From assembly GCA_032718475.1 (NCBI GenBank), contig JAUCBJ010003147.1, positions 1 to 64,000 of the forward strand: a stretch of DNA of 64,000 bases, in the 5' to 3' direction. A program made the translations under genes and the position numbers. Below the pieces are notes generated by a model. That model did no database searches, had not been told where the DNA came from, and saw only the letters and a list, made by a program, of their open reading frames with translations. Positions 20,985 to 64,000 of the stretch are shown here, one piece after another (within the stretch, counting starts at the first letter, position 1; the number at the start of each line of letters is the position of its first letter). The DNA is from Nemertoderma westbladi (Eukaryota; Animalia; Xenacoelomorpha).

Positions 20985-21602
20985 CTACACCACAGCAAGT
21001 AGAGCATGGCGGATAATGCTATAGAGTTTGGCATGGCCAAGGTCACTCAGGTGTATACCATCGGAGTGCAGCAAGGTTCCTCCCTGCACCCGATGGCATA
21101 ATGCACCTTGCATTTTAATTAGAACGCCGTTCTGGGCGTGGTTGAACCACGCCGCCATCCGCATATTTGTGGCGACACGACGTGAATCATAATCGGGGTC
21201 CACAGACACACCTTTAGGGCGCATTAACCTGGGGAACATTTGTGTCCATAACACACAGGAAGCACCATTGGAAGAATATTCCTGAATCATTGACTTTAAT
21301 TTAGAGACAACGTAATCTGTGTCTCTCACACACAGATCGTTGCTTCCAAATAGAAGTACAATGAAACAAGGTTTATTGTCCCAATTGGCCATCACCTCCT
21401 GCGCGTTATGGGTGTCAAATATTCTCCCTGACCGCAGCTGAAAGGTAACTTTGGCAACTGTTGGACAGATACCAAAGTTACGATTGTGGCCGCGGTTGTT
21501 GTGGTCAAGGTACCGAAAGAGGTGGTCTGGGTGTGAAGACCCAACGATTATAATTTCATGTACATGATTGACAGTACAAATAGCTTGGACCGGTAGTGGC
21601 AT
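20985..21602 (-). CDS. Intronless SGNH/GDSL hydrolase (transposon-associated type), about 205 aa from the first ATG
   Basis: Block I IIIVGSSH, a block II glycine (LRSG), block III LLFGSNDL and block V DGIHL occur in canonical order. ATG at 21602 (MPLPVQ); a TATA-like motif lies about 75 bp upstream. Confidence 0.88.
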   Translation of the reverse strand: MPLPVQAICTVNHVHEIIIVGSSHPDHLFRYLDHNNRGHNRNFGICPTVAKVTFQLRSGRIFDTHNAQEVMANWDNKPCFIVLLFGSNDLCVRDTDYVVSKLKSMIQEYSSNGASCVLWTQMFPRLMRPKGVSVDPDYDSRRVATNMRMAAWFNHAQNGVLIKMQGALCHRVQGGTLLHSDGIHLSDLGHAKLYSIIRHALLAVV

Positions 21603-21675
21603 AATATCGACTGAATAGAGCAAATAAGTGGAGAGAAATGGGTAAAGTGATGATTTAATATGATACAGCGTTCCG

Positions 21676-21684
21676 TTTATATAG
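21676..21684 (-). promoter_or_regulatory. Putative TATA box of the SGNH gene
   Basis: CTATATAAA on the minus strand, about 75 bp upstream of the ATG. Confidence 0.5.
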
Positions 21685-21968
21685 AAAATTGTAAAGCATA
21701 TTGATGGTGGAGACAGTTGTTAATTCAGCGTGTGTATGGTTACGGTGTACATTACGGTGATAATTAGTAATTGATATTGGTTTGTAAATGTGCTGCAATG
21801 CAGTCAGGCAGTTGTTTCTCTAAGGCATAACCTTCCAATCCAATAATACCATATATGGTAATAATTCCCTTGGTTGCATCATGAAGCCTATTCATTGGTC
21901 GTAACATTGAGTAATTCTAACTGCAGCATACAGTGATATTCCTCTGACAATTTTGTTGGCGGGTTGTG

Positions 21969-22150: not shown

Positions 22151-24368
22151 GTAAGTTTAATGTTACCCAAGGTGATTTGCACTTGCAGATTCAGATAAAC
22201 CTGCTTGCGTGCTGGACTGTTCTGATACCTACTGCAGTACTGGTAGCCTTACATTACTGCATTATACATACAGCCATATGTTTTTGAGTGAAAAGGTCAA
22301 TGCAGCAATGTTTGTGTTCCTGTCTGTGTAGACGTAGAACTGGTAGGCTAGTACAGTACCAAGCAAGGCAATTACCGGTACTGATCTACCGGAAACACAG
22401 TAAGCAAAACCAAAAACATGCCGATGTACATAGGCTACAGATATACATACGGATGTACTGATATAGGCCATACCTACTGCCTTGCCTACTGTACTAGTTT
22501 TCCCCTGTTGAAAGGTTTTATTTTCTGCGCCAAACGCTGTGTTATTTTAAGTGAATAAAATCCTTTGCCGGGTAGATGCAAAGCTTGTGCTGAGCGGACC
22601 TTTTGGCACCTTGTCCGGCGTAGCACATTTCTGCACCAGCTCCCGCCGCAAGTAGAAATGCTGCGCCAAAATAAGGCGTACAGACAGGCAGGTAGGCCTA
22701 ACACTTTTCAATTGGCTGATAGGGGTACAGGCCCAGTCTGACCGTCCCGTTACAAAGTTTTACACATACGGACTGACGGACGCAGAGCATGTAACGGTCT
22801 GCCGGTATTGTGCAATACTGCAATTCAGTTTAAATAGGCCTAGCCGTAATAAAATGTAAAGGTCTGCCGGTATCGTGCAATTCAGTTTAAATATCCCTAG
22901 GTAATAAAATCACAGTAATCTCTCACACGAACACGAAGCAGCCAAAGCAGAAAAACAATTCTTATTTTTATTTTTTATATCTGTAGGCAGATAGGCCTGG
23001 TGCCTGGATTGTTATTTTTTTTGTTTATTCTTTGTAACATGCTCCATTCTGCCATTACAGGTTAGGTAGGTAGGCCGACCACTGTTACACTGCCTTGTCT
23101 TGTCTTGCCTACTATTTTTACTCATTCCTATAGGCAATAAGATAACTTCCATCTATTTTACATTACGCCTACTATTTTGTTGTGTTAAAACAGAACTGTT
23201 ACCTGCCAGTCCTGCCTATACCTAGCACTGTGGCACCCTAGCAAGCGGTCTAGCGGCAGAACGGCCAAATTATTACGAGTAGGCCTACAGATCTGCCGAT
23301 AGGGCTACAGGTCAGCAGGTACCGGTACGAACCGGTCCGGTACTTATATTTTATACCAAATTTATTAATAGGTACGGTATTCTACAGTTCTATGTACCGG
23401 TACCCGTACCGGTGTATCAGAATTTTCACTCCCCATGTAAAATCATTTCATTTTTAAACTTCCCTAGTGCTGTAGTGTATTCTCATTCCCATGGTGTATT
23501 TTGTCTAGTGTATTTTATCCCCCTCAAGTGAAAACTCAACCCTGCATTTATATATTTTCGTATTAAGCAGATCCATCCCCAGTTAAATTGCTAAGGGCTA
23601 CCGCTATTAATTTATGGATTATTAATATATTTAAAAAAAATTTCAATTTAAAATATGAACACCATAATCACCATATGCCATACGCATACACCCTCTACAG
23701 TACTTTACTATATACAAATCTACAGCGTGTTTTTTTCTGTCTACTACAGCACCCTATAGATGATAGGATACTGCGGTCATCTATTCATTTAACTGAAGGG
23801 TTAGAATTATATCGAATTTAAATTACATTGAAATTTAAAATATATATAATGCTGTAATGGGGTAGGAATAAGCTGAGGGGAGTTACATTTCACTAAAAAA
23901 TCACCCGGAGTATTTTCATCCCCCGTTAAATATCCTAGTGAATTCTAACCGGGGGTGAAAACTGAAAGACAGCTAGACCTTGTGAATATTAACTGGGGGG
24001 TGAATTTTTAACTGTTTAGAGGGTGATGATTTTCTGCTACACCTGTACTGGTACTGGTAGCGTATTCTTTCTTCGTATTCGTACAGGTATATATATATTT
24101 ATATATACCGGTATATATATTTGTGTCATTGTAATGCTCGAATGAATGTTTAGCCCTAATCGTTCCGAATTTTGGTGGTGTCTTCTGTTTTGTATGTAGC
24201 GGTACCGTTATTTTATTTTTATTTCTATTTCGTTTTGCCTGTTCATTGCACATAATTAAATATATAGGGTCATAAATAGACATGAATGCGTAGGCCTATG
24301 CTGTTCTCTAGATCGGTTGTATTTTGTTAAATTATTTCTTTAATTTATTATTTTTTATAGATAACGTT

Positions 24369-24617
24369 ATGCCAAAACGAAAGCAATCTTTTGTTTGCTC
24401 GTACTGCCAAGGTCGCTGTGGCAAGAAGCGACACAACAAGGCAACCTGCCCTATGCGCATCGAACATCTGCGGAAAGGGATAGATGCCGCCAACATGGAC
24501 GCCGGTAGAGAGTTGGAAATAGGTGGCGTTGGTGACCAACCCATCGGTATTCATGTAGAGATTCCGGGAAGCGCCGATGTCCATCAGACCGGCCGTTTAC
24601 ACGCGGTGGAAGCCAAT
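24369..24617 (+). CDS. Coding exon 1: basic N-terminus and zinc knuckle
   Basis: MPKRKQSFVCSYCQGRCGKKRHNKATC...; donor GTAAGT at 24618. Confidence 0.85.
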
Positions 24618-27600
24618 GTAAGTTTTATTTAGGACTAACTTATATTAAGTATTATTCTAAACAGAGGCATGCTTAATACACTGTTTGTACGGCCTGCATA
24701 CTGTATCTGGGAAACACACCATTATCTGCACACTATTTAACCCACTTATCTATACCAGGAGATCTGCCATCGTGAGTTACCCTCCTTGATAACCAATCTT
24801 GATTTGACTTTTAATCTTACCCACCATTGTAACTCTATCTATATTGTCTTTTTACCAGCCATTGTCTACCTCCCTGTTTACCTTCCACCTTATTTGGTAA
24901 AGCTCCATTATAAATGTATATGTGCTGTGGGTCGGAGCTTTAAGGAGAAGGACTTCGATCCAATGTAACATAATAAATTGTGTAATGTTGTAGTATTATG
25001 TTGTGCTAATATACTAATTACTATAAATTCTACGTACTCCTTATTGTTGCTGTGAAGTGCGGTCATTTCTTTAGTATAGTTTCGTTATAATATGTTATTG
25101 TTATTCTTATTTATAATTACAGAATAACTATAAGTACCGGTATACTTATGGAACTATAACACCCCCCCTCCCTCACTTAAACGGAATATAAATTTTCTAA
25201 AATTAAAAAATACCTACCTATCTCTTTTTGTTGTTTGAAGTCAGTATAAGTATATCTCTCCGTGTCATTATTTTAAACTGCTACTTTCTAGGTGGAGTTG
25301 GATCGCGAGACTCCGGAGGTAGCGGTCGGACGCGAGACTCCCACTTCTCCATCCTACGCGGACGCGTTGAGATCGCCTCCACGGCCAAGTATCTGTTCTC
25401 CGCTGCAACCAACCCCGGTAGGACGCGGGACTCTCGACGTCACGGTGGGACGCCAGACTCCCCCTACATCTCCATCATACGCCGACGCGTTGAGATCGCC
25501 TCCACGGCGACGTACTACCCGTCCGCCAACACCACCAACGCCGGTTAGTTTAACATATATAAATATGTGGACCTACTTTGTCATTTTATATTTTGTTTCG
25601 GTGGTTTTCTAATACAATTACTGCATAAAACGATTAGCTGAAGCAATATATACAGTATATACCAGTATATACCTCCCAACACTCTACCCAGAGTCTCTCT
25701 TGACTCTTCACCCCGACCCCTCCCCCATTAATTCATTGAATCGTACATATTTGTTACATTTTTCTTCTATTTTTTCTCTTCTATCTATTATTTTTAAATT
25801 ATTTAGGTCGCCAATTCAAAGAGTTGGTTCCGCCAGGTCGCGGACGATCTCAACCTGGATGTGGTCGACATACCAAACCACCCACTGGCGCAGTTATCTG
25901 CGGTTTCAACGGCTGCGGGCTGGGGGATATCAGCCACCTATCTGAAACAACACGTGGCCGACTTCATGTTGCTGAGAACGGCCAAGTATTCGCGGCAGTG
26001 GCTCTTCCGTACGGGAGGGCCGCAATCGTTCGCCGCCTACTTACTTTCATTGGCGTCGGATGATTGCCAGGTTAACGACATCAACCTGGAGGCCATAAGA
26101 GATATGGAGGAGATGGAGATCACGGTCCATCGGGCGCAGCACCGAAACGCGCCAAGTTGTTACTGCGCCCCCCCAAGGAGACGAGGTGGTGCCATCCATA
26201 TCGGTGTGGACGGCGACCGATACGTCGCGTTTGTTTCGAGGTCTATCTCGACCCAGTCCGGCCGCGTGACCGAGTCGGAACCGATGGTTAGTTAATACTC
26301 TCCCTATAATGTTTCACTGTGTTTTTCAATAATGTTTGTGTTTATGTCACTGTTACATTAATGTTTGTATAAAAAGTATGTAACAAATACCATGAAATGT
26401 CTACAAAATAATTATATTTCCCGAATAGACGATGTTACACGGCTATTAATTAATTGAGACGTCGTCATTATTTTTATAGCTTCATATTAATTCCAAATTA
26501 TTGGTACCGACAATTAAAAACTCCATTTCGTTAATAAATATACATTTAGAATTCCTTTAAATACATTTAATATACATGGAATATTAAAATGGAATATGGA
26601 ATATTATAATACACATTGAATGTACCTTTAATTTCTTATTAAGTAAATATCAATTATCTCAAACTCCATATTTATAATTAATTGTTTAGGTTCTCCAGGA
26701 AGCTATTAAACCTATGGAGGACGTACATAATATCTCAGTCGCAACGGAGTTATTTACTACCGTTGTAGAATCTGATCTGCCCCGTAGATCCTATACGGTG
26801 TCCGGCCGTTTAGCTTCCAAACCTCCGACTGTAAGTGAATCTATATTATATATGTAATATCATATATTCATATATTATTTATTTAATTTGTTAAGAAATA
26901 ATTTCTTAAATTGTCAGAGGTTAGCTAAAATGTCACCCTATTTATAATTTATATGCACTTCGACATTTTACAATAATTCCACACTATAATAATATATTTA
27001 TATAATATTGATTATCGTTATTTTAGAGTTTTTTTTTGAATTCCCACTTGAACCACGGCGTTTATTTTGAATTGATGAGGAAAGTAACTTTATAATTTGT
27101 ATTAATATATTAACCTACAGGAGCTGCATTTAGTTGATAATATTATACGATATAATTTAACCGATATAATTAATTATTTAATTGTTATTTCCACAGAGAA
27201 CGTCGTCACGTAAAGGGAAGAAGAAATTATCAGCTCTGCAAGACGCAACTGATATCAGAGGTGACGCTATGTCTGAATGTTCAGATGTAGGTAGTATCGG
27301 CTCTGTCGGTAGTATCGGTTCTATTCGTAGTGTCGGTACTGCCGGTAGTGTTGGTTCTGTTAGCAGTATGGCGTCTAACGAGTCAACCCGTAGGAGGAAC
27401 GCCGCTCAAAAGTCCGGCTGTCCGTCTTCCCGTCCAGAAATCGTAAGTTTACTCAATAAATTATGTAATTAATTAATTATACAGAAACCTAATTAAATGA
27501 TATTTTTTGTATAATGTATTTAATTAATGGTAACTAACAGAACTCTTGTAAATATTTAATAATTTTTGTACAAATTAAATGACTGGAATACAATTGCATT

Positions 27601-30600
27601 TCGGTGCTTTAAAACTGAAAATATAAAATATTTTGTTTTAACTAATTCATATTTTCCCATTTAAATAAAGTTTATTTTATATAATTATTAATATTCCATA
27701 CGAATGGTAACTTAATTATTTGTTTAAATTTTAAAGACTATTTTATTCCATAATTTTTAATTTATAGCGTTTATTTTAAAATATTTAATTTAACTAACAG
27801 TTAATTATATAATCAACATCAATTATTATTTTTATTTTAGTTCACTAAACCAACTAAACGAAAGGGAGGCCAAACGTGTTCCTATTGTCAAGGACGTTGC
27901 GGGAAGAGGTCGCATAAGAAACAAACCTGTATTATGAGACTCTTCCATGAGAGTAAGGATATATGGGTGGCAAATATGGATGCGGGCATTCTTCTGGAAG
28001 TAGTACAGGACGCTGAGATGGACGAAATGGCCGCAGAGCCAGAGAGTACTGCTGATATGGACGCGGAATTCTTACAGGATATCGAACACGCGGAATTCTT
28101 ACAGGATATCGAGATGTTCGATATCGAGGCCGCCGAGAGTGGCGCTGTCCAGACCGGCCGCGTATCTGATCCAGAACCGATGGTTAGTTAACTTAAATAT
28201 ATCCTAAGCTATATTTACTAAATAACCCATAATATTGTCTATATTTCGGCGCACACGTACTGCATCCTATATACACGTTTGTACCATGTACAAATGTAGT
28301 GCGTGGATGTACACATGTAGTACATGGATGTACACATGTAGTACATGGATGTACACATGTACACATGCAGAATACACATGTGGTACATGGATGTACACTA
28401 GAGTTGCAACAGAGACCTGTTTTTCTTAATCCCGGTAAACCAGAGCCCTACCCAGAGAATTATTTTGAAAAATACCGGAGACCAGAGCCAGAGATCAGAG
28501 ACTTGGCTTATTTTTGTTCTTCCATTTTGATTAGTCCCATAAAGCACAAACAGGTACATATGGATGGACTGAAACTATTTTTATATGGTTGAATTACAGT
28601 AACTCCAACCCATATGAACCCTTACCAATTGAAATAAAATAAGCGCACGTACAGTTTACTTAATTAATATTAATTTGGTTATTTGTTTATTAATTCGTTC
28701 TTATTTTGTCATTGTTAATAATATGTTACATAAATTTGTTTTGCGCCATAGGTACCGGTACTTTGTTAAGTAAAGGCACTTATTTTACAATTGTTCAAAT
28801 CATATACATTTCAATAGACTATAAACTTAGTAAATTACGAATACAGTGCACAGGTATGGTACTCTACTCGCCCCATATGCAAGCCTCGTTACGCTCGTTC
28901 TCTTCATTTGGTCTTCATATTATCTATCCTACAACAAGTTGAACGGAGATCAGCCCTTTCTTTCACTTTTAAACATTATGGGTGCTCAAATTAAGCACCT
29001 TTATCCTTAAATAAGAACGACCTTTAGGTGCTAATTTAATTTAAAATTAAACGCACCTTAAATTAATAAATGTAAATATAATTATTATCGGTACATTTAG
29101 TTTGAGTCAGATTTAGAGTTAGATTAAAAACAGTGTAAAAGTGAATGTATAATTTTGTTGAAGCTGAGTATTAAAAATAAAAATTAAAGAAATTATTAAT
29201 TGTAAAAAATTTGTGAAAAATAATCTTCATTTCACATTTTGTGTTGTACAGGATCTATTTTTAAATATCTATTTTTAATTTGTAAAATCACTGATCTCTG
29301 GGTAAAATGTCTGTTTTCAATACCCGGGAACCAGAGACCCATCCAGAGACTAAAAAATTACCCGGAGAATCCAGAGATCAGTGACAGGTCTCTGTTTCAA
29401 CTCAATGTACACATGTGGTACATGGATGTACACATGTGGTACATGGATGTACACATGTGGTACATGGATGTACACATGTGGTACATGGATGTACACATGT
29501 GGTACATGGATGTACACATGTGGTACATGGATGTACACATGTGGTACATGGATGTACACATGTGTTACATGGATGTACACATGCGGTACATGGATGTACA
29601 CATGTAGTACATGGATGTACACATGTACCGCACCCTATATACACGATTGTACCATGTACAAATGTAGTACGTGGATGTACACATGTAGTACATGGATGTA
29701 CACATGTAGTACATGGATGTACACATGTACACATGCAGAATACACATGTGGTACATGGATGTACACATGTGGTACATGGATGTACACATGTGGTACATGG
29801 ATGTACACATGTGGTACATGGATGTACACATGTGGTACATGGATGTACACATGTGGTACATGGATGTACACATGTGGTACATGGATGTACACATGTGGTA
29901 CATGGATGTACACATGTGGTACATGGATGTACACATGTGGTACATGGATGTACACCTGTGGTACATGGATGTATACATGTGGTACATGGATGTACACATG
30001 TGGTACATGGATGTACACATGTGGTACATGGATGTACACATGTGGTACATGGATGTACACATGTGGTACATGGATGTACACATGTGGTACATGGATGTAC
30101 ACATGTGGTACATGGATGTACACATGTGGTACATGGTTGTACACATGTGGTACATGGTTGTACACATGTGGTACATGGATGTACACATGTGGTACATGGA
30201 TGTACACATGTGGTACATGGATGTACACATGTGGTACATGATGTACACATGTGGTACATGGATGTACACATGTGGTACATAGATGTACACATGTGGTACA
30301 TGGATGTACGCATGTGGTACATGGATGTACACATGTGGTACATGGATGTACACATGTGGTACATGGATGTACACATGTGGTACATGGATGTACACATGTG
30401 GTACATGGATGTACACATGTGGTACATGGATGTACACATGTGGTACATGGATGTACACATGTGGTACATGGATGTACACATGTGGTACATGGATGTACAC
30501 ATGTGGTACATGGATGTACACATGTGGTACATGGATGTACACATGTGGTACATGGATGTACACATGTGGTACATGGATGTACACATATGGTACATGGATG

Positions 30601-35461: not shown

Positions 35462-37048
35462 GACAATCAAGTCTCACACATAGATCTCGTTTTACGTAGA
35501 ATTTGTAATACCCAAAGACCTTTTGGAGGAAAGTTATTTATTGGCTGTGGAGATCACAAACAGCTAGAGCCAGTTGAGGGTAGAGTTGTCTGGCTTAGTA
35601 CACACTTTTTAACAACCTTTAAAGTAGCTGTTTGTAGACATTTTGTCCGTAGTGCCAACGATCAAGAATTACAGCTTGTTATAAATATCTTGCGGTCAAC
35701 AAATCCATCTCCAAATGAAATTGATCAAATGATTAATATCCTAAAGAGGCGTTGCAATTTTGTTGATACCTGGGAAGATGTCCCAGATGATGTGTTAAAG
35801 GTTGTAGGCACTAGGGCTGGTGAGCAGGAGGTATTAAAGAAATATCTGGACCGGCACCGAAATGAGTACGGAACTGTAATTATTGATAGTATTGATCAGG
35901 TCAATAACGGTAATCCAGCGGAGGAGCAATCTTGGAAAGAAACGCAAGCTACAAACATTATTACCTCAATAACAAAGTCTTGTCGTGAACCAAGACAATT
36001 GGTGTTATTTCTTAATCAGATTCTCCGATTTACATTTAATCGTTATTCTGTGCAACCACAATTTTCAAATGGTCAATTACTCTTTGTTACAAAGGTACCC
36101 ACTGATAGAACAGATAGATTACATGGGGCTATTGTCCCTAAAGGTTGCCGCCGTGTCAATTCAGAGGTTGCACAAACCTGGCCTATCGTTAAACTAGAGC
36201 AGCGTAAAATGCCCCCTCCTACTACTGTTGGTTATGGTAGGAATACTATCATGGGGAGGCGAATACAATATCCTGTACGTTATTTTGGAGCGAGCACTAT
36301 TCATGGTGTTCAAGGTCAAGGTACACCTTCTATAGCAACCCAGATAACTATGGACAAACAGAGTACATATAAAATTTGGCTTAAAACCCAAGTAACAACT
36401 TTAATCTCAAGAGTATATTTCCTTGACCAATTTACGTTTGTTGGGCCCACGGATGAAACTTTTAATTGTGTTAGGGTTTTAGCTAATAGAAAATCTCCAA
36501 ATCAAGAGTATGTAGATCAGTTACTGCATAGTCTCAATATTCTTGATGGGCCACCACAGGAGCCAATAGCACTTGCTGACCATCCTTTCTTGCCATACTA
36601 TATCGACATTCCTTCATCCCATACGGGATTTGTATATATGTTGATTAGCGTCAGATTTCCTAATGTTGTTACTTATATAGGGCAAACTGAGGAACTGAAA
36701 GCTCGGTTAAATGCTCACCAGAATAAGACAGGGTCTGAATTCACAAGAAATCCAGCCTACCATCCCTGGGCGCTTTATGCATTTGTAAGTGGCTTTCCTG
36801 GTGAAGCAAAGAGTGCACTCAATACTGATTACCGTAAGGAATTTGAGACTCAATGGCACCATGATACTGATACCAACAGAAGTGGTGGTAATACAACTCA
36901 TAGTAGAGAATATATCTATAACATTGGGATTGAGATTGTACGTCAGTATAACACTGATCATTTATATCATGATGAAAATGAAGATCCTCAGAAATTTGAA
37001 TTGATAATGGTTCAATGTCAACGTATAAATGTTATTGCCAATGAATAA
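35462..37048 (+). CDS. PIF1-family (SF1B) helicase C-terminal part fused to an SLX1-type GIY-YIG endonuclease; 5'-truncated, possibly a pseudogene
   Basis: The open frame extends 228 nt upstream of the track ORF. It contains IDLVLRRICNTQRPFGGKLFIGCGDHKQLEPV (motif III), HFVRS (IV), ASTIHGVQGQG (V) and QVTTLISRV (VI), then GFVYMLIS..TYIGQT..ARLNAHQ..HPWALYAFVSGF..EFETQW (GIY-YIG, about 36626-36860). Walker A and B are absent. Confidence 0.9.
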   Translation, partial: DNQVSHIDLVLRRICNTQRPFGGKLFIGCGDHKQLEPVEGRVVWLSTHFLTTFKVAVCRHFVRSANDQELQLVINILRSTNPSPNEIDQMINILKRRCNFVDTWEDVPDDVLKVVGTRAGEQEVLKKYLDRHRNEYGTVIIDSIDQVNNGNPAEEQSWKETQATNIITSITKSCREPRQLVLFLNQILRFTFNRYSVQPQFSNGQLLFVTKVPTDRTDRLHGAIVPKGCRRVNSEVAQTWPIVKLEQRKMPPPTTVGYGRNTIMGRRIQYPVRYFGASTIHGVQGQGTPSIATQITMDKQSTYKIWLKTQVTTLISRVYFLDQFTFVGPTDETFNCVRVLANRKSPNQEYVDQLLHSLNILDGPPQEPIALADHPFLPYYIDIPSSHTGFVYMLISVRFPNVVTYIGQTEELKARLNAHQNKTGSEFTRNPAYHPWALYAFVSGFPGEAKSALNTDYRKEFETQWHHDTDTNRSGGNTTHSREYIYNIGIEIVRQYNTDHLYHDENEDPQKFELIMVQCQRINVIANE

Positions 37049-53835: not shown

Positions 53836-55040
53836 ATACCAGAAATATTTTTAATATTATGAAGAAATCACTATATTGTATATAGTGGTATTACCTGTTT
53901 CCGAATACTGTTTAAACTCAATCATAATTATTTTACATTTGTGCTTAGTTTATTTTTTATGTGATCTTTGATTCAATATGAATAATAATAAGAGATTATA
54001 TGGCTTTGTTGGAGTATTACCAGCTATGCCAAATAAATTATGACATACATTGAATATGAAAAAGTTATTAACAGTTCCCTATAGATTTACTGAACATAAA
54101 ACATGTTGAACAGAAAACAGTAATCGATAGAATTATATTATTGATTTATACTAAAAAAAATTAATCAGTCTCTGACACAATGCTGTATGCACGCTATGCA
54201 GTATGCATTAACAGTAGGCTATTTCGTAATTCTCAGTCTGTCTGTCTGTTCTGGTATTCTAGGTCAAATTCTGTAAATTTATTTCAAGTGCTTTTATTTT
54301 TATTATTATTGGTCATGTAGGTTATAACAATTGGTGGTGGAATAATATTCGGTGCAATTATTTTTAATTAAATATAAATGTTTTTTGGTATTTTTTTGAA
54401 AGAAATTTATAATAAATGATTTATTACATTAGAACAGTAGGCTATTTCAAAACTCTCACTCTGTAAGTTCATCAGTACTATTCTGATAGTTTAGGCCAAA
54501 TTCTGTATATTTGTTATAACTGTTATTATGTTTTTTATTATTGGTCGTCTAGGTTATAATAAATGGTGGTGCGATAATATTTGGTGCAATTATTTTGAAA
54601 ATAAATTTATAATAAATGATTTATTACCTTAGTAACCTACTGACTTATTAAGATTTAACCACAAACTAAAACTGAATAAACTGTTTTCTGTTCAGTATAA
54701 TTTTGAGAGTTATTATTTGATATTCAGTGATGTAAATTTTAGATGACTGTTTATGTTCCTAATAAAACAATAGAGACTGTTTTATATTAAGTAAAGTCCA
54801 ATGAAGTTTGTTTTATGTTCAGTATATAAGTCTATATTCAGTCTTAATTTCTAGTTACTGAGTCAACCGATTTAATCTTTTAATAGCAATATTTTAGGCA
54901 TTGTATACAATATCTTAATACTTATAATCTATATTTATTAACCATATTTATGCACTAATATATTCCTCCTTTCCAGTATTATATATATATCCTTCTGAAT
55001 ATGATTTAGTAATCATTGTATTTTCTGGATATATTGATAA

Positions 55041-55078
<38 letters not shown>

Positions 55079-57423
55079 ATGGATTCATAACTTTGATGCT
55101 TTATATCAGTAATACACAACAAGTGATGGTAATTGTGGTGGCAATGACAAATGACAACAATTATTATACTTATAATGGTATAAAGATTCATCTTCTACTA
55201 ACAACTTCTACTATAATGATCTTCAAATTATTTATGTATACCTATGTTCTATATCAGTTATATATTACAAAGTGATGTCAATCAATATCATTAATTTAAC
55301 TTGTAACAGTAAAAAGATTCATCTCCAACCATAATGAATGTATATCTCCAGTAATGATTATCAAGCGATCATCTTCAATTATTATTAAAGGTAAGTTTAA
55401 ATTATATACTTGTGAATAAATTTTCATACCCACAAATGGTATAGCAATAAAGCAGAAATATTTATATTTTGTTTGTTATTATTGTTGTTATATTGTTTAG
55501 ATATAGTAAACCTTGTTAGCTAGGTATAGTATTTGATTATATATATATATTTATAAATAATGTTCTGCTAATCTTTTAAATCTACTTATTAATATATAAT
55601 TTAGAGTTTTCTTAGTAGTAGGGTCTGTTCTTTATTTATCCTAATATACCTAATTCTTACTATAGTGATCTTATAAAATAAATTTATTTCTAATTTTTAT
55701 TTTGATCAATTTCTATATAGTTTGAACCATATAATTCTTAATTAGTTCCCTTACTCAATTGTAGTTCCTGTCAAATTAAACAATATATTAAACTGGGACG
55801 TTTTTAAGGAATTAGGTATTAAAATCTAATTGAAATAATTTATGTTTATTGTAGTTCTACAAAATTTTTATTATAGTATAAAATTTTTATTGTAGTCGTA
55901 CTATGAATATAGAAAAATAATATTAATATATGGCACCTATTTACTTTAAATTATAAATATTAATTAATTTAAATGTGTAAAAGTAAATACTATTATTACG
56001 AAATTTTTATTGTAGTAATATAATAAATATATAATAATAATGTATGGTACATATTATTAACTTTTAATTATGAGTAATAAATAAGTTAAATATTGGTTAC
56101 TATGTGTTATATAGTATTTAGTTTTAATTAGAAGTTTAAATTAATTAAATGTTTACTTTTATGCTATATTTATTTATTTTAATTATTTCTTTATATATAT
56201 TATTATTATTATTTATTTAACATTCCTATGTCCTGGCCGTTTTCACGGTACTCTAATAGTATTTTTTAAATCCATAGCCTATGATATCCATGTTTTGGAA
56301 TCTGGGATTGCACCTATGGCCCACGCAGGACATTTGGAAATTCTTTTTTACTGTTTTTTTTAAGAGGATACACAATTTTTTTTAAATGATTCATTTTACA
56401 GTTATGAATTTTTATGAAATATAACTTTGACAATAATATATTTGATATATTTGGAAATTATACTAATGAAACAAATGGATATACAATATCATACAAGTAT
56501 ACTTAAGTATATAAGTAAAATTATATATAGACAGACAGCTTTAAGTTTAAAGCTTTTATTTAAAATTTCTATAGTACTTTTTTAACCTGGTCTATAGAAA
56601 TCCTTAAACTATTTAACAGATACAACTTAATTCAACCATAATTTAAAGTGGTGGTCTTAACACACAGACACAGCATCAGCCAGCTATATATGAATTTAGA
56701 TAATTTAAATTATTTTATACAGATATATCATAAATACATATACTTATATGGTCATTGACATATATTTCTAAGTCGATATGAAATAATTATAATATAATTT
56801 CAAAGCATAATGTAATTTTGTACTCTTATTTAAGTTACATTATGCTTTAGATTATGGATAAATGAAACATGGAAAACATGGATAAAATTACAATATAAAG
56901 ACATTTTTATAATCAAGTAAATAGAATGATAACTTGAAAATCTTACTTACGCAAAGAGAAACTTGAAATTAAAAAAAGTTTAACTTAAATATATAATTAT
57001 TATTGAGATAAATAAACTAAAAATCATAATTAATTAATTAATTATATTAAATTGTTTAAATGAAAAAAAAAGGGCTTACAATATTTTTCAAGAAAAATAT
57101 AAATAGGATAATTTAAACTATTTTACATGGCAATATCTTGTATAATTGATATAATCCTAAGTATATATGAACCAATACTAACTAAATAGTATAGTATAGC
57201 ATTTATATAGTCAAGTTTTAACTTAAAAAGTTAATATAGTATAGGTTTATTTTAAAAGGTGAACATGGGGATAACTACAACATAATGATGCAACTTAATC
57301 AAGTAAACAGATATAACTTAAACTCTGCATGTGTAAGGGATGAACTTAAACTTAAGTTGACATAAATATAGTGAATATTATAATGATGTATCCTCTTAAT
57401 TTTTTTATATTTTTTTTTGAGTC

Positions 57424-57578
57424 GTGGGAACTGCGCTACTCATATCTTTATTTAATATTATGGTTATAATCAAAGCATAAATTTTTTATTATTATATATT
57501 TGCTTTGTTTACTCCAAATATTGAAATAAATATGATAAATGAGTAATCGTCCAAAGCCGATTAAAGCAGGATGGCCAC
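57424..57578 (+). ncRNA. Twister ribozyme candidate (type P1), copy 1
   Basis: P1 GUGG/CCAC, L1 GAA and GAUGG, P2 CUGC/GCAG, GC, P3 UACUCAU/AUGAGUA with a long AU arm, P4 AUCG/CGAU closing UCCAAAGC, linker UAAA; both pseudoknots can form. Confidence 0.85.
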
Positions 57579-57619
57579 TTCCAAGTTTATCTTAAGTACA
57601 TTTGAAGGTGAAATATTTA

Positions 57620-60600
57620 CTTTATGTAATGTTATTTTGAGTCATGCGGTCCATTTTCATGGCAATGGTGAGATCCCTGTCGAACGTTCCCCATGTATTG
57701 CAGTTTCCCATAAACAGGCCACCCAGCGCAGTTGCCCATCACCAGGGCAATGGTCATAACCCTGTGGAACCTCCCCCACCCAGCCCTCTAACTTTGTTTG
57801 CTGGAAAATTATAATTGGATAGATGTATCAATATATCCTCCTCATCCTCATGAAAATAGTATTTTCTTCACTGAATGACTCTTGCATCACTAATCAATGT
57901 TATTGGTTATTATTTCAAATGTATGAGTTGTTTTCAAGAAAGATAACATTTCTTTATGCTGAGCTTCTTGCCAACAATCTCTTTCCAACATGTGGAATGT
58001 TTTTTTAAGTCCAGGATTGTTTTGATAATGAGCAATTTTCATGAGCATTTTCATGGCAATGGTCACATCCGTGTGGAACCTTCCGCCACCCAGTACAGTT
58101 TCCCATAAACAGGCCCCCCAGCACAGCTGTCCATCACTAGGGCAATAGTCAGAATGCTGAGATGATTTTGAGGTTGTGCCTAATGTAGGATTGTTTCGAT
58201 AATGAGGGTTTTTCAGTCAGTTTATCTGCTTGGTATCTTCTAACTTTGTTTGCTGGAAAATTATAATCGGATAGATGTATCCATATATCGTCCTCATCCC
58301 CTAACTATCCTATCATCTAACTTTGTTTGCTGGAAAATTATAATTGGATAGATGTATTCATATATCCTCCTCATCCTCATGAAAGTAGTATTTTCCTCAC
58401 CCAATGACTGTTGCATCACTAATCAATGTTATTGGCTATTATTTCAAAAGTATGAGTTGTTGGCAATAAAGATAACATTTCTTTATGCTGAGCTTCTTGG
58501 CAACAATCTCTTTCCAACATGTGGAATGTTATTTTGAGTCCAGGATTGTTTTGATAATGAGCAATTCTCATGACCATTTTCATGGCAATGGTCACATACG
58601 TGTGGAACCTTCCGCCACCCAGTACAGTTTCCCATAAACATGCCGCTCAGCACCGCTGTCCATCATTAGGGCAATGGTCAGAACCCTGACATGATTTTGA
58701 GGTTGTGCCTAATGTAGGATTGTTTCGATAATGAGGGTTTTGCAGTCAGTTTATTTGCTTGGTCTGAAGCAGATTATCCTCTAATCATCTAACTATCCTA
58801 TCATCTAACTTTGTTTGCTGAAAATTATAATTGGATAGATGTATCCATATATCCTCCTCATCCTCATGAAAGTAGTATTTTCTTCACCCAATGACTGTTG
58901 CATTACTAAATGTTATTGGCTATTATTTCAAAAGCATGAGTTGTTGGCAATAAAGATAACATTTCTTTATGCTGAGCTTCTTGCCAACAATCTCTTTCCA
59001 ACATGTGGAATGTTATTTTGAGTCCAGGATTGTTTTGATAATGAGCAATTTTCATGACCATTTTCATGACAATGGTCAAATCCATGTGGAACATTCCACC
59101 ACGCAGTGCAGTTTCCCATAAACAGGCCCCCCAGCACAGCTGTCCATCACTAGGGTAATGGTGAGAACCCTGAGATGATTTTGAGGTTGTGCCTAATGTA
59201 GGATTGTTTCGATAATGAGGGTTTTGCAGTCATTTTATATGCTTGGTCTGAAGGAGATTATCCTCTAATCCTCTAACTATCCTATCATCTAACTTTGTTT
59301 GCTGGAAAATTATAATTGGATAGATGTATCCATATATCCTCCTCATCCTCATGAAAGTAGTATTTTCTTAACGCAATGACTGTTGCATTACTAATCAATG
59401 TTATTGGCTATTATTTCAAAAGCATGAGTTGTTAGCAATAAAGATAACATTTTTTTATGCTGAGCTTCTTGCCAACAATCTCTTTCCAACATGTGGAATG
59501 TTATTTTGAGTCCAGGATTGTTTTGATAATGAGCAATTTTCATGACCATTTTCATGGCAATGGTCACATCCGTGTGGAACATTCCATCACGCAGTGCAGT
59601 TTCCCATAAACAGGCCCCTCAGCACAGCTGTCCATCACTAGGGCAATGGTCAGAACCCTGAGATGATTTTGAGGTTGTGCCTATTGTAGGATTGTTTCGA
59701 TGATGAGGGTTTTGCAGTCAGTTTATCTGCTTGGCCTGAAGGAGATTATCGTCTAACTATCCTATCATCTAATTTTGTTTGCTGGAAAATTATAATTGGA
59801 TAGATGTATCCATATATCCTCCCCATCCTCATGAAAGTAGTATTTTCTTCACCCAATGACTGTTGCATCACTAATCAATGTTATTGGCTATTATTTCAAA
59901 AGCATGAGTTGTTAGCAATAAAGATAACATTTCTTTATGCTGAGCTTCTTGCCAACAATCTCTTTCCAACATGTGGAATGTTATTTTGAGTCCAGGATTG
60001 TTTTGATAATGAGCAATTTTCATGGCCATTTTCATGGCAATGGTCACATCCGTGTGGAACATTCCATCACGCAGTGCAGTTTCCCATAAACAGGCCCCTC
60101 AGCGCAGTCAGTTTATCTGCTTGGCCTGAAGGAGATTATCGTCTAACTATCCTATCATCTAATTTTGTTTGCTGGAAAATTATAATTGGATAGATGTATC
60201 CATATATCCTCCCCATCCTCATGAAAGTAGTATTTTCTTCACCCAATGACTGTTGCATCACTAATCAATGTTATTGGCTATTATTTCAAAAGCATGAGTT
60301 GTTAGCAATAAAGATAACATTTCTTTATGCTGAGCTTCTTGCCAACAATCTCTTTCCAACATGTGGAATGTTATTTTGAGTCCAGGATTGTTTTGATAAT
60401 GAGCAATTTTCATGACCATTTTCATGGCAATGGTCACATCCGTGTGGAACATTCCATCACGCAGTGCAGTTTCCCATAAACAGGCCCCTCAGCACAGCTG
60501 TCCATCACTAGGGCAATGGTCAGAACCCTGAGATGATTTTGAGGTTGTGCCTATTGTAGGATTGTTTCGATGATGAGGGTTTTGCAGTCAGTTTATCTGC

Positions 60601-62265
60601 TTGGCCTGAAGGAGATTATCGTCTAACTATCCTATCATCTAACTTTGTTTGCTGGAAAATTATAATTGGATAGATGTATCCATATATCCTCCCCATCCTC
60701 ATGAAAGTAGTATTTTCTTCACCCAATGACTGTTGCATCACTAATCAATGTTATTGGCTATTATTTCAAAAGCATGAGTTGTTAGCAATAAAGATAACAT
60801 TTCTTTATGCTGAGCTTCTTGCCAACAATCTCTTTCCAACATGTGGAATGTTATTTTGAGTCCAGGATTGTTTTGATAATGAGCAATTTTCATGACCATT
60901 TTCATGGCAATGGTCACATCCGTGTGGAACATTCCGCCACGCAGTGCAGTTTCCCATAAACAGGCCCCTCAGCACAGCTGTCCATCACTAGGGCAATGGT
61001 CAGAACCCTGAGATGATTTTGAGGTTGTGCCTATTGTAGGATTGTTTCGATGATGAGGGTTTTGCAGTCAGTTTATCTGCTTGGCCTGAAGGAGATTATC
61101 GTCTAACTATCCTATCATCTAACTTTTGTTTGCTGGAAAATTATAATTGGATAGATGTATCCATATATCCTCCCCATCCTCATGAAAGTAGTATTTTCTT
61201 CACCCAATGACTGTTGCATCACTAATCAATGTTATTGGCTATTAATTCAAAAGCATGAGTTGTTGGCAATAAAGATAACATTTCTTTATGCTGAGCTTCT
61301 TGCCAACAATCTCTTTCCAACATGTGGAATGTTATTTTGAGTCCAGGATTGTTTTGATAATGAGCAATTTTCATGACCATTTTCATGGCAATGGTCACAT
61401 CCGTGTGGAACATTCCACAATGCAGTGCAGTTTCCCATAAACAGGCCCCCCAGCACAGCTGTCCATCACTAGGGTAATGGTCAGAACCCTGAGATGATTT
61501 TGAGGTTGTGCCTAATGTAGGATTGTTTCGATAATGAGGGTTTTGCAGTCATTTTATATGCTTGGTCTGAAGGAGATTATCCTCTAATCCTCTAACTATC
61601 ATATCATCTAACTTTGTTTGCTGGAAAATTATAATTGGATAGATGTATCCATATATCCTCCTCATCCTCATGAAAATAGTATTTTCTTCACTCAATGACT
61701 GTTGCATCACTAATCAATTGGCTATTATTTCATAAGCATGAGTTGTTGGCAAGAAAGATAACATTTCTGTTGAGCTTCTTGCTAACAATCTCTTTCCAAC
61801 ATGTGGAATGTTATTTTGAGTCCATGATTGTTTTGATAATGAGCAATTTTCATGACCATTTTCATGGCAATGGTCACATCCGTGTGGAACCTTCCCCCAC
61901 CAAGTGCAGTTTCCCATGAACAGGCCCCCCAGCACAGCTGTCCATCACTAGGGCAATGGTCAGAACCCTGAGATGATTTTGAGGTTGTGCCTAATGTAGG
62001 ATTGTTTTGTTGATGAGGGTTTTGCAGTCAGTTTATCTGCTTGGTCTGAAGGAGATTATCCTCTATTCTATCATCTAACTTTGTTTGCTGGAAAATTATA
62101 ATTGAATAGATGCATCCATATATCCTCATCATCCTCATGAAAGAAGTATTTTCTTCACCCAATGACTGTTGCATCACTAATCAATGTTATTGGCTATTAT
62201 TTCAAATGTATGAGTTGTTGACAAGAAAGATAACATTTCTTTATTTTGAGCTTCTTGCCAAAAAA
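57620..62265. repeat. About 480-bp satellite array (about 9-10 copies)
   Basis: GATAGATGTATCCATATATCCTC-type marker near 57818, 58347, 58834, 59319, 59799, 60189, 60669, 61150, 61638 and 62105. Confidence 0.96.
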
Positions 62266-63255
62266 CTCTTCCCTACCCGGTGCTGGTCTGCAACAGGTGC
62301 TCCTCCCCTACCCGGTGCTGGTCTGCAACAGGGAGCTGCTCCCTCATTGGCACTGGAAGTGTATGACGCCTGGGTGGTTTTATCTTAACAGTTGTTTGCC
62401 ACTTATAAACCTGCGAATGTATGGATTCATTCAAATAAGATTGGGCAGCAGTTATGTTGTTTAAGAGGGGGATTTTGTTAAACTAAAATTTAGCCGGACT
62501 CAACAACTTATCTTCATCAACATAATTATGTTGTGACGTTTTTATTCGAGTCCATGTCCTCACCATATTTAGTTGATCGTTTCAACGACTACACCTTACC
62601 CAATATTCAATTTTATCTTCATCACTCTTAACCCGTTTTACCTCTCCCATTACAATCGTACTACCTCCAACCTGTGCATTGTGCAATCACTTAACTACAT
62701 TTCAAACCCATGTTCCTAAAAAACTTATTTCAAACCCATGTTCCTGAAAAACTTATTCATTCTACAACTCTTATCTTTATATGCACCTTTTACTTCTAAT
62801 TAAACTAAAGAAGAGTCTATTAAAGACGAGTATGGTATGGTATATCTTCAATTATTTATTAACTATTTATTATAACTGAGTCATATCAGAGCAATTATCA
62901 TAATGTATTGCCCAGTGATGGTCCAGGTATAAATTCTGAAATATGTAAATAATTAATATTTACTATATTTAAAAATTATTACACAAAAAATGGCATGTAT
63001 ACTTGGCACTATACTTGTAATTGTCCACTTGTCAGACTTCTTGGCATCTTGTTAATACAAAATATTCATATATTACATTATATTAGTTACTAATGAAGTA
63101 ACTTCTGCCGGCGCAGGTCTCCAACAACAGGGCGGACAGAACTCAGTGGCACCTCTGAATATATTCTTCCATTGGATGTATGCCTGAAACTGGGCGTTTC
63201 ATCCAGCCTTGATGTATTGACTGCATTAACTAGTAATATAATTGTTATTTTCATT

Positions 63256-63408
63256 TGTGGGAACTGCGCTACTGCATTTATATTTATTTATAATGGTCGT
63301 AATCATTAAATTAAAGCTTTAGCTTTAAATTGCCTTGGTTCCGTTAAATATTTTTAAATAAATATAAATGAGTAATCGTCCAAAGCCGATCAAAGCAGGA
63401 TGGCCACA
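63256..63408 (+). ncRNA. Twister ribozyme candidate (type P1), copy 2
   Basis: P1 UGUGG/CCACA, GAA, P2 CUGC/GCAG, GC, P3 UACU(G)CAUUUAUAUUUAUUUA/UAAAUAAAUAUAAAUGAGUA, P4 AUCG/CGAU with loop UCCAAAGC, linker CAAA, then GAUGG. Confidence 0.87.
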
Positions 63409-64000
63409 TGATATCTACTTATTGGAATTATTTAAGATATCTACATGCATTAACTGGTAATTGTCCATTATACTCTGACTTATTGGCAGTTATTAATTCC
63501 TCAATAGTCATCATTTGCACTTTATTATATATTTCATATGGGATGGCTACATCATATCTAGTTATTGGAATTATTTAAGATATCTACACGTTGTAATTAT
63601 TTAAACTATTTTTACAATTTTTCAGGGTGAGTGAAAAATCTGGTTCTAAGCTAGTATGTACTTATTAGTACCAGCTTGTAATACTTATTTATACACTTAT
63701 TTAATTAGTTGCTTTATGTCTCCTTATATACTCATTTACATACTTCATGGTTAATTACTTATACTAAATTACATATGTATACAAGTGTGTGAAAATAAAC
63801 ATGTAAATTAAAAAGTGACAAAACATTTAGGGACTAAGTACTTATACAGAACTTACTTATATAGTGTAGTTACTAATGAAGTAACTTCTGCTGGCCTTTT
63901 GAGTCCTGGTAGGTATATTTGCAGCAGGATGAGGAAGTCACTTTAACAATTGTAGAATGGCACAACACAATAATATAGGCCTAGAATATAACATGTGCCA

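What the first reader, a model, noticed from the sequence alone, without database searches (positions are those of the whole stretch)
57424..63408. Two same-strand twister ribozyme candidates bracket a ~480-bp satellite array
Seen: two copies about 5.83 kb apart read GUGG-GAA-CUGC-GC-[P3]-AUCG-UCCAAAGC-CGAU-(U/C)AAA-GCAG-GAUGG-CCAC. Established: this order of P1, L1, P2, P3, P4, linker, P2', L1' and P1' matches type-P1 twister ribozymes. The loop GC can pair with the GC after P2, and loop CCA can pair with UGG where the well-studied twisters, as I recall them, have CCC/GGG, which would be a compensatory change. Inference: a plus-strand transcript would be cut near G57428|A and G63261|A, releasing a ~5.8-kb RNA made mostly of the satellite. 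That resembles a retrozyme-like or ribozyme-bounded mobile unit.
Basis: partly seen in the sequence, partly recalled or inferred. Interest (0 to 1): 0.9.

Follow-up and report, generated by a model that had tools for sequence, protein, structure and literature searches.

The report
Long-armed twister pair beside a satellite
Two copies of a known self-cutting RNA fold (the twister ribozyme), each with an unusually long hairpin arm, flank a tandem repeat in a eukaryotic genome; they are predicted to cut RNA, but they are likely separate members of a small scattered family and not the two ends of one 5.8-kb jumping unit.

Summary
Type-P1 twister folds lie at 57424-57578 and 63257-63407 (+). A descriptor finds exactly these two and none in 30 shuffles, and each stretch folds unconstrained into the twister secondary structure. 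The cores differ at 1 of 46 positions, the P3 arms at 42 of 109 columns. Rfam misses them, likely because P3 is 105-109 nt. Phage twisters with the same loop and pseudoknot letters do hit RF03160, and G|AA cleavage is published.

The 5.8-kb unit model is poorly supported. Homology stops at the ribozymes, there are no LTRs and no target-site duplication, and contig depth shows no step across copy 2. Public DNA contigs show at least four further contexts of the 3' core.

Each copy has its own short direct repeat, 220 and 224 bp apart (weak to moderate support). This hints at short, retrozyme-sized twister elements inserted separately. Cleavage and transcription are untested. Interest 0.42.

The parts
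57424..57578 (+). Type-P1 twister ribozyme, copy 1. Predicted cut G57428|A57429; predicted general-base G57570; 109-nt AU-rich P3 hairpin at 57437-57545.
   Evidence: Descriptor hit; unconstrained MFE equals the twister fold, -33.1 kcal/mol; second-ranked hit of a model built from phage twisters, 3' half only, E about 0.005.
63257..63407 (+). Type-P1 twister ribozyme, copy 2. Predicted cut G63261|A63262; predicted general-base G63399; 105-nt P3 hairpin at 63270-63374.
   Evidence: Descriptor hit; MFE equals the twister fold, -37.5 kcal/mol; top hit of the phage-twister model, 3' half only, E about 0.002.
57628..62276 (.). Tandem array of about 480-bp units (about 9-10 copies, one 390-bp unit, degenerate first piece). 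No ribozyme was detected inside the unit.
   Evidence: left edge from a loose end at 57628; no twister-P1 descriptor hit, hammerhead core or Rfam ribozyme hit.
63222..63237 (+). Left member of a 16-bp direct repeat (15 of 16 identical) around copy 2; possible target-site duplication or terminal redundancy of a 208-224-bp element.
   Evidence: 1 of 300 shuffles as high; 5 of 1000 shuffles; 34 of 637 background windows.
63446..63461 (+). Right member of the 16-bp direct repeat, 224 bp from the left member.
63541..63588 (+). Partial second copy of the last 10 nt of twister 2 plus its 38-nt tail (45 of 48 identical to 63398-63445). It ends at the same point where the right direct repeat begins after copy 2.
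   Evidence: E 9e-15.
57415..57423 (+). 9-bp sequence abutting P1 of copy 1 and repeated 220 bp downstream at 57635-57643. Ambiguous: the downstream copy lies inside 16 bp that match the satellite unit.
   Evidence: extended match reached by 18 of 300 and 122 of 1000 shuffles.
56357..57381 (.). Old, about 60%-identical repeat of about 400-bp period upstream of copy 1; diverged versions exist in public contigs.
   Evidence: E 9e-17; 0 of 100 shuffles for the last two units; the earlier pair was not significant.

Best explanation
These are two type-P1 twister folds with 105-109-nt P3 arms, predicted to self-cleave at G|A, that belong to a small multi-copy family in this genome and were likely placed here separately as short (about 210-225 bp) non-coding retroelement-like units, so that the satellite between them is likely a bystander. 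Shown: the fold, the conserved core, further family contexts, and the lack of shared flanks. Inferred from known twister chemistry: A+1 as general acid and the L1' guanine as general base give a 2',3'-cyclic phosphate and a 5'-OH end whenever a plus-strand transcript crosses a copy. Inferred and weak: the family spreads through an RNA released by such cuts (from head-to-tail copies, as in animal non-LTR retrozymes) and copied by a retrotransposon reverse transcriptase in trans; the copies here would be single insertions with short flanking repeats.
For: Fold and chance control. Module order matches the Schistosoma twisters tabulated in PMC8501958. Core 1 of 46 versus P3 42 of 109 differences, Fisher p = 4e-7, while both P3 arms stay hairpins (z -3.6 and -4.9): a pattern of selection on RNA structure. 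At least four further contexts of the 3' core, with other P3 ends or tails, appear among the listed contigs of runs X1-X3; three of them are in X1 alone. Summed depth over the core is about 4-7 times that of the flanks, a rough sign of a handful of copies. One contig joins the T-rich leader to unrelated upstream DNA at 57402, and another carries the upstream repeat on into other DNA at 57397, hinting at a module edge about 25 nt before P1 (one contig each). Per-copy direct repeats lie 220 and 224 bp apart; 8 of 304 random anchors in the window's non-satellite DNA have such a repeat. Coral retrozyme monomers are 220-240 bp (PMC7229834), and Nematostella repeats have 15-bp TSDs (PMC4918200).
Against: No intact head-to-tail dimer, no joint closing a 220-224-bp unit and no empty-site allele appear in the listed joints (rows were cut and contigs drop rare forms). 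The direct-repeat criterion was set after seeing the data. Copy 1's repeat is not significant alone (122 of 1000) and overlaps satellite sequence. The highest-depth relative lies in a contig of about 500 nt, longer than a monomer. A diverged contig in X3 runs from the upstream repeat 16 nt into copy 1, and a 97%-identical variant in all three runs joins copy 1's tail to the first satellite piece, so copy 1 has kept its neighbours in more than one version. No reverse transcriptase family was seen among the 5 ORFs scanned, and no long ORF lies within 62250-64000. With 50-150 nt of flank the predicted P1 probability drops to 0-0.6 in most settings (pseudoknots not modelled).
Confidence: 0.5

Rival explanations
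1. The twisters are processing modules inside longer repeated elements or segmental duplicates (for example Helitron-like or Penelope-like elements, or their remnants). They would cut read-through RNA or define an element's 5' end, and they travel with kilobases of flank, not as 220-bp units.
For: Diverged versions of copy 1's upstream flank and of its tail-satellite junction exist. The highest-depth relative sits in a contig of about 500 nt. The window holds the C-terminal part of a Helitron-like PIF1/GIY-YIG protein 20 kb away. Twisters at the 5' end of Perere-3 are published (PMC8501958).
Against: The two copies share no tail or leader. No retroelement ORF follows copy 1. P1's 5' strand is identical in both copies, unlike Perere-3, where the target site supplies it and the TSD abuts the cut. 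The Helitron-like match is confined to 35480-36868.
Confidence: 0.27
2. One reading: one plus-strand transcript is cut twice and releases a 5,833-nt, 80%-satellite RNA with 5'-OH and cyclic-phosphate ends. It could be ligated into a circle and may be the mobile or amplifying unit.
For: Same strand, both cores intact, and these are the only two descriptor hits in 64 kb. Copy 1 lies 49 nt from the array, and a second version keeps that junction. Tandem twisters yield RNA circles in engineered constructs (PMC7229834 discussion).
Against: No LTR-like homology and no TSD around the span. The P3 arms are old-diverged while full satellite units are 93-99.6% alike. There is no depth step and no listed alternative outer flank at copy 2: X1 91-97 inside versus 84-86 outside, X2 87-107 versus 93. 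Known retrozyme RNAs are 150-1000 nt.
Confidence: 0.13
3. The folds are inactive or silent relics: never transcribed, or misfolded in context because AU-rich flanks and the long P3 compete with P1 and P2.
For: Predicted P1/P2 probabilities fall with flanks. In copy 1 the first tail bases can pair with the 5' strand and bury the cut site. G at -1 was seen in 0 of 27 phage descriptor hits.
Against: The core is conserved far beyond P3. G|AA twisters cleave in vitro (PMC8501958). T1 base-pair swaps are mostly tolerated and P1 is dispensable (PMC5113685). Copy 2 folds correctly with its 3' flank (P1 0.89-0.98).
Confidence: 0.1

Closest known systems
Type-P1 twister ribozyme (Rfam RF03160; Osa-1-4 and Sma-1 examples)
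   Same: Order and pairing of P1, L1, P2, GC, P3, P4/L4, linker, P2', L1', P1'; both pseudoknots; conserved AA, GC and GA positions.
Animal non-LTR retrozymes (Cervera and de la Pena 2020, PMC7229834; passages and Discussion read)
   Same: Non-coding, AT-rich, ribozyme-bearing; candidate unit of 220-224 bp; one possible 16-bp TSD.
   Different: Those carry type I hammerheads in tandem arrays and make abundant circles. Here the ribozyme is a twister, no intact tandem dimer was seen, copy number looks low, and RNA is untested.
Plant LTR retrozymes (Cervera et al. 2016, PMC4918200; passages read)
   Same: Two same-strand ribozymes around a non-coding middle.
   Different: They have 300-400-bp LTRs, 4-bp TSDs, PBS/PPT and a 600-1000-nt RNA. 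Here there are no LTRs, no TSD, and a 5.8-kb span.
T-variant twisters of Perere-3 RTE retrotransposons (Liu et al. 2021, PMC8501958; sections 3, 17, 19, 21 read)
   Same: Eukaryotic genomic type-P1 twisters with P3 and a non-U base tolerated at -1.
   Different: No APE/RT ORF downstream, no TSD at the cut, and a fixed 5' P1 strand.
Hammerhead-bearing satellites of newts, schistosomes and cave crickets (as cited in PMC7761336 and PMC6765202; passages only)
   Same: Ribozymes next to satellite DNA.
   Different: There each satellite unit holds the ribozyme; here none was detected in the 480-bp unit.

Membership tests
Type-P1 twister ribozyme | P1-L1-P2-(P3)-P4-P2'-L1'-P1' secondary structure | tested here: met
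   Descriptor 2 hits, 0 in 30 shuffles; MFE equals the fold for both copies.
Type-P1 twister ribozyme | Pseudoknots T1 and T2 can pair | tested here: met
   GC/GC and CCA/UGG pair by sequence. The same loop and L1' letters occur in 4 phage loci that hit RF03160 at E 2e-11 to 2e-8, below its 67.2-bit gathering score. That pair is C-G in 20 and A-U in 4 of 24 aligned twisters, a split set by my two search patterns.
Type-P1 twister ribozyme | Catalytic A+1 and L1' guanine, NAA at the cut | tested here: met
   GAA and GAUGG are present; G|AA is reported active (PMC8501958); the general acid and base roles are from PMC6154101 passages.
Type-P1 twister ribozyme | Significant score against the Rfam model | tested here: inconclusive
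   No twister hit on the native sequence; the model has 68 positions. A model from 24 phage twisters ranks both 3' halves first of 7 hits in 44 kb; 4 of its 24 rows were found with a window-derived pattern. A P3-trimmed Rfam search was not run.
Type-P1 twister ribozyme | Site-specific self-cleavage | not testable with these tools
   Needs an in vitro assay or raw RNA reads.
Plant-type LTR retrozyme / ribozyme-bounded unit | Ribozymes inside 300-400-bp direct repeats (LTRs) | tested here: not met
   Homology is limited to about 165 nt at 76%.
Plant-type LTR retrozyme / ribozyme-bounded unit | TSD around the whole unit | tested here: not met
   Only one AT-only 6-mer among repeats of 6 bp or more. 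A 4-bp TSD cannot be judged without element ends.
Plant-type LTR retrozyme / ribozyme-bounded unit | Other copies of the unit with new outer flanks | tested here: not met
   None among the listed contigs at copy 2 in X1 and X2 (11 loose ends and 26 pieces not shown).
Animal non-LTR retrozyme | Type I hammerhead ribozyme | tested here: not met
   The ribozyme is a twister; the only hammerhead-core match in the window is at 54475 (-).
Animal non-LTR retrozyme | 150-450-bp head-to-tail units | tested here: inconclusive
   Per-copy repeats 220 and 224 bp apart and a partial second copy, plus an 82-bp go-back joint in all 3 runs, but no intact dimer.
Animal non-LTR retrozyme | Monomer-size linear and circular RNA | not testable with these tools
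   Needs RNA data.
RTE/Perere-3 5' twister | APE/RT ORF 110-150 nt downstream and TSD at the cut | tested here: not met
   No such ORF after either copy within the window (only 593 nt are available after copy 2); no repeat at the cut apart from the ribozyme itself.

The most novel reading that the evidence does not exclude
A family of natural twister-based retrozymes: about 220-nt AU-rich RNA circles, cut and released by a long-armed twister in place of the hammerhead of described animal retrozymes, and written back into the genome by a retrotransposon enzyme. The two copies here would be single insertions, and as a side effect would let any read-through RNA excise a ligatable 5.8-kb satellite RNA.
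Probability: 0.25. Interest if true: 0.7.

Novelty: new variant of a known kind. Interest (0 to 1): 0.42.

Why it matters
It shows a eukaryotic twister family that standard Rfam scans miss, likely because of a 105-109-nt P3 arm, so genomic twisters may be under-counted. If the 220-bp units prove to be circle-forming mobile elements, the retrozyme life cycle would extend from hammerheads to twisters; I found no paper describing that in 10 full-text searches (open-licence library only; a 2026 retrozyme preprint named was not read).

Tried and rejected
Rfam scans of the window, of 55000-64000 and of copy 2 alone gave no ribozyme hit; the miRNA-type hits are weak. No whole genome is held, so no genome-wide census or spacing test was possible. 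No RNA holder was listed among 6 runs, which is no evidence on expression. X3 and X5 do not cover copy 2's flanks; this is not used as evidence. Exact-pattern searches for close relatives: 24 viral hits and 1 metagenome hit were all chance. No earlier findings by place or by sequence. The satellite unit is not homologous to the upstream 400-bp repeat or to either unique flank. Copy 1's tail versus copy 2's leader is not significant (65 of 1000 shuffles; 72 of 637 background windows). A perfect sigma-70-like promoter at 57357-57384 was rejected as chance: the host is eukaryotic, the DNA is AT-rich, and position 57361 differs in other versions. No tRNA. The loop and L1' motifs of these copies were not found as twisters in the one supplement file searched of PMC8501958. 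The supplement of PMC5113685, which holds the double-mutant values, was not read and bears on the activity of the A-U pseudoknot pair.
Full report
1. Observation. A type-P1 twister descriptor with a free P3 length found exactly two hits on both strands of the 64-kb window, 57424-57578 and 63257-63407, and none in 30 shuffled windows. Folded alone and unconstrained, each stretch gives the twister secondary structure as its minimum-energy fold, with P3 as one long hairpin of 109 or 105 nt. The predicted cuts, G57428|A and G63261|A, are 5,833 nt apart. The satellite runs 57628-62276 and is 80% of that span. It begins 49 nt after copy 1 and ends 980 nt before copy 2.

2. Are they twisters? The module order matches the Schistosoma twisters tabulated in PMC8501958 (section read). 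Rfam gave no twister hit on the native sequence; its model has 68 positions, so the long P3 is the likely cause. To test the unusual letters I collected natural twisters from viral contigs: 27 distinct descriptor hits among 243 loci from two pattern scans. Four share this window's loop and L1' letters, and all four hit RF03160 at E 2e-11 to 2e-8, below the gathering score. The 4-nt linker is the commonest length (21 of 27). G before the cut was seen in 0 of 27, but G|AA twisters cleave in vitro (PMC8501958), and most T1 pair swaps keep activity (PMC5113685, whole text read). A model built from 24 of the 27 (three further hits of one repeated core type left out) ranks the two 3' halves first of 7 hits in 44 kb, at rough E values of 0.002 and 0.005; four of its rows came from a window-derived pattern. 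Between the two copies the core differs at 1 of 46 positions and P3 at 42 of 109 columns (p = 4e-7), while both P3 arms remain stable hairpins. That is the pattern of selection on an RNA fold. Against activity: with 50-150 nt of flank the predicted P1 probability falls to 0-0.6 in most settings, more so for copy 1, though pseudoknots are not modelled. Cleavage is untested.

3. Do they bound a unit? The copies share only about 165 nt at 76%. Leaders and tails do not align better than shuffles. The only repeat of 6 bp or more around the whole span is an AT-only 6-mer. No ribozyme was detected in the satellite unit. No genome is held, so I laid public DNA contigs on the two unique flanks. Across copy 2, contigs of runs X1 and X2 tile 62780-64000 with 0-1 differences, at similar depth inside and outside (X1 91-97 versus 84-86; X2 87-107 versus 93). 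No listed contig keeps the inner flank and changes the outer one (11 loose ends and 26 pieces not shown; depth is no copy number). At copy 1 the DNA outside the proposed unit has diverged versions, and one X3 contig runs from it 16 nt into the ribozyme. One result favours a link between copy 1 and the satellite: a variant with 6 differences in about 200 nt, in all three runs laid, joins copy 1's tail to the first satellite piece. It may be an allele or a paralogue. Overall the 5.8-kb mobile unit fails the LTR, TSD and other-copy tests that define plant retrozymes (PMC4918200 passages).

4. What the family looks like. The listed contigs show at least four further contexts of the 3' core with different P3 ends or tails. 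One has a 5-nt linker and the highest depth; one places copy 1's tail directly before the P4 hairpin (joint 57625 to 57544 in all three runs). Only short pieces were laid, so it is not shown that each is a whole ribozyme. Summed depth over the core is about 4-7 times that of the flanks, which roughly suggests a handful of copies. Each window copy has its own flanking direct repeat. Copy 2 has a 15-of-16 match at 63222 and 63446 (1 of 300 and 5 of 1000 shuffles; 34 of 637 background windows), followed by a partial second copy of its tail. Copy 1 has 9 bp at 57415 and 57635, not significant alone and overlapping satellite sequence. Eight of 304 random anchors have a comparable repeat; the criterion was set after the fact. 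The spacings, 220 and 224 bp, match coral retrozyme monomers of 220-240 bp (PMC7229834 passages), and 15-bp TSDs are reported for Nematostella repeats. No intact dimer or empty site was listed.

5. Context. The window is gene-poor and full of satellites. It holds the C-terminal part of a Helitron-like protein: 843 relatives at E up to 0.001, and of 7 long ones scanned, 7 carry PIF1, 5 Helitron_like_N, 5 GIY-YIG and 2 OTU. The match lies 20 kb from copy 1 and nowhere else in the window. I infer a eukaryotic nuclear genome, probably of an invertebrate; this is not shown.

6. Mechanism and odds. Shown: two intact twister folds in a small family with unrelated flanks. Inferred from known chemistry (PMC6154101 passages): cleavage at G|A leaving cyclic-phosphate and 5'-OH ends. 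Best reading (0.5): short twister-bearing elements placed separately, with the satellite a bystander. Rivals: modules of longer repeated elements (0.27); a doubly cut satellite RNA or mobile unit (0.13); silent relics (0.10).

7. Novelty. The ribozyme is a known class with an unusually long P3 that hides it from Rfam. In the passages I read, retrozymes are described with hammerheads, and genomic twisters are tied to RTE 5' ends; ten searches found no report of twister-based retrozymes. That reading gets probability 0.25 and interest 0.7 if true. Overall interest 0.42.

Noticed in passing
window 35462-37048 (+): 528-aa open frame with a PIF1 helicase tail and GIY-YIG nuclease: the C-terminal part of a family of 2,000-2,800-aa Helitron-like proteins (Helitron_like_N, PIF1, GIY-YIG, some with OTU). 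Its 5' side is replaced by a 28-bp satellite.
   Followed up: partly
window 20985-21719 (-): 244-aa open frame with a GDSL/SGNH hydrolase match, among satellites; possibly cargo of a mobile element.
   Followed up: no
window 63084-63112 and 63867-63895 (+): 29-bp direct repeat (28 of 29 identical) containing a 7-bp-stem hairpin, on either side of copy 2 and 783 bp apart; both places show extra contig variants. Could be element ends or another small RNA motif.
   Followed up: partly
window 58934-58996, 59422-59484, 61253-61315: Each satellite unit carries a roughly 14-bp inverted repeat that forms a hairpin (weak mir-31_2 scores far below the gathering score).
   Followed up: no
window 57544-57625: In all three runs a variant places copy 1's tail directly before the P4 hairpin (82-bp go-back joint): a duplicated enzyme half of the twister without an adjacent substrate strand, or a deleted dimer.
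   Followed up: partly
window 24312-24632 and 27841-28191 (+): Two related short frames with a CxxC...H...C zinc-knuckle-like motif; no Pfam match for the one scanned.
   Followed up: no
window 54475 (-): Single hammerhead-core-like pattern match; stems not checked.
   Followed up: no
L026, L064, L108, L140 and 23 further hits in L147-L264: Phage type-P1 twisters; the four scanned score 45-56 bits, below Rfam's 67.2-bit gathering score, so default scans miss them. L026 holds a second, cut-off twister.
   Followed up: partly
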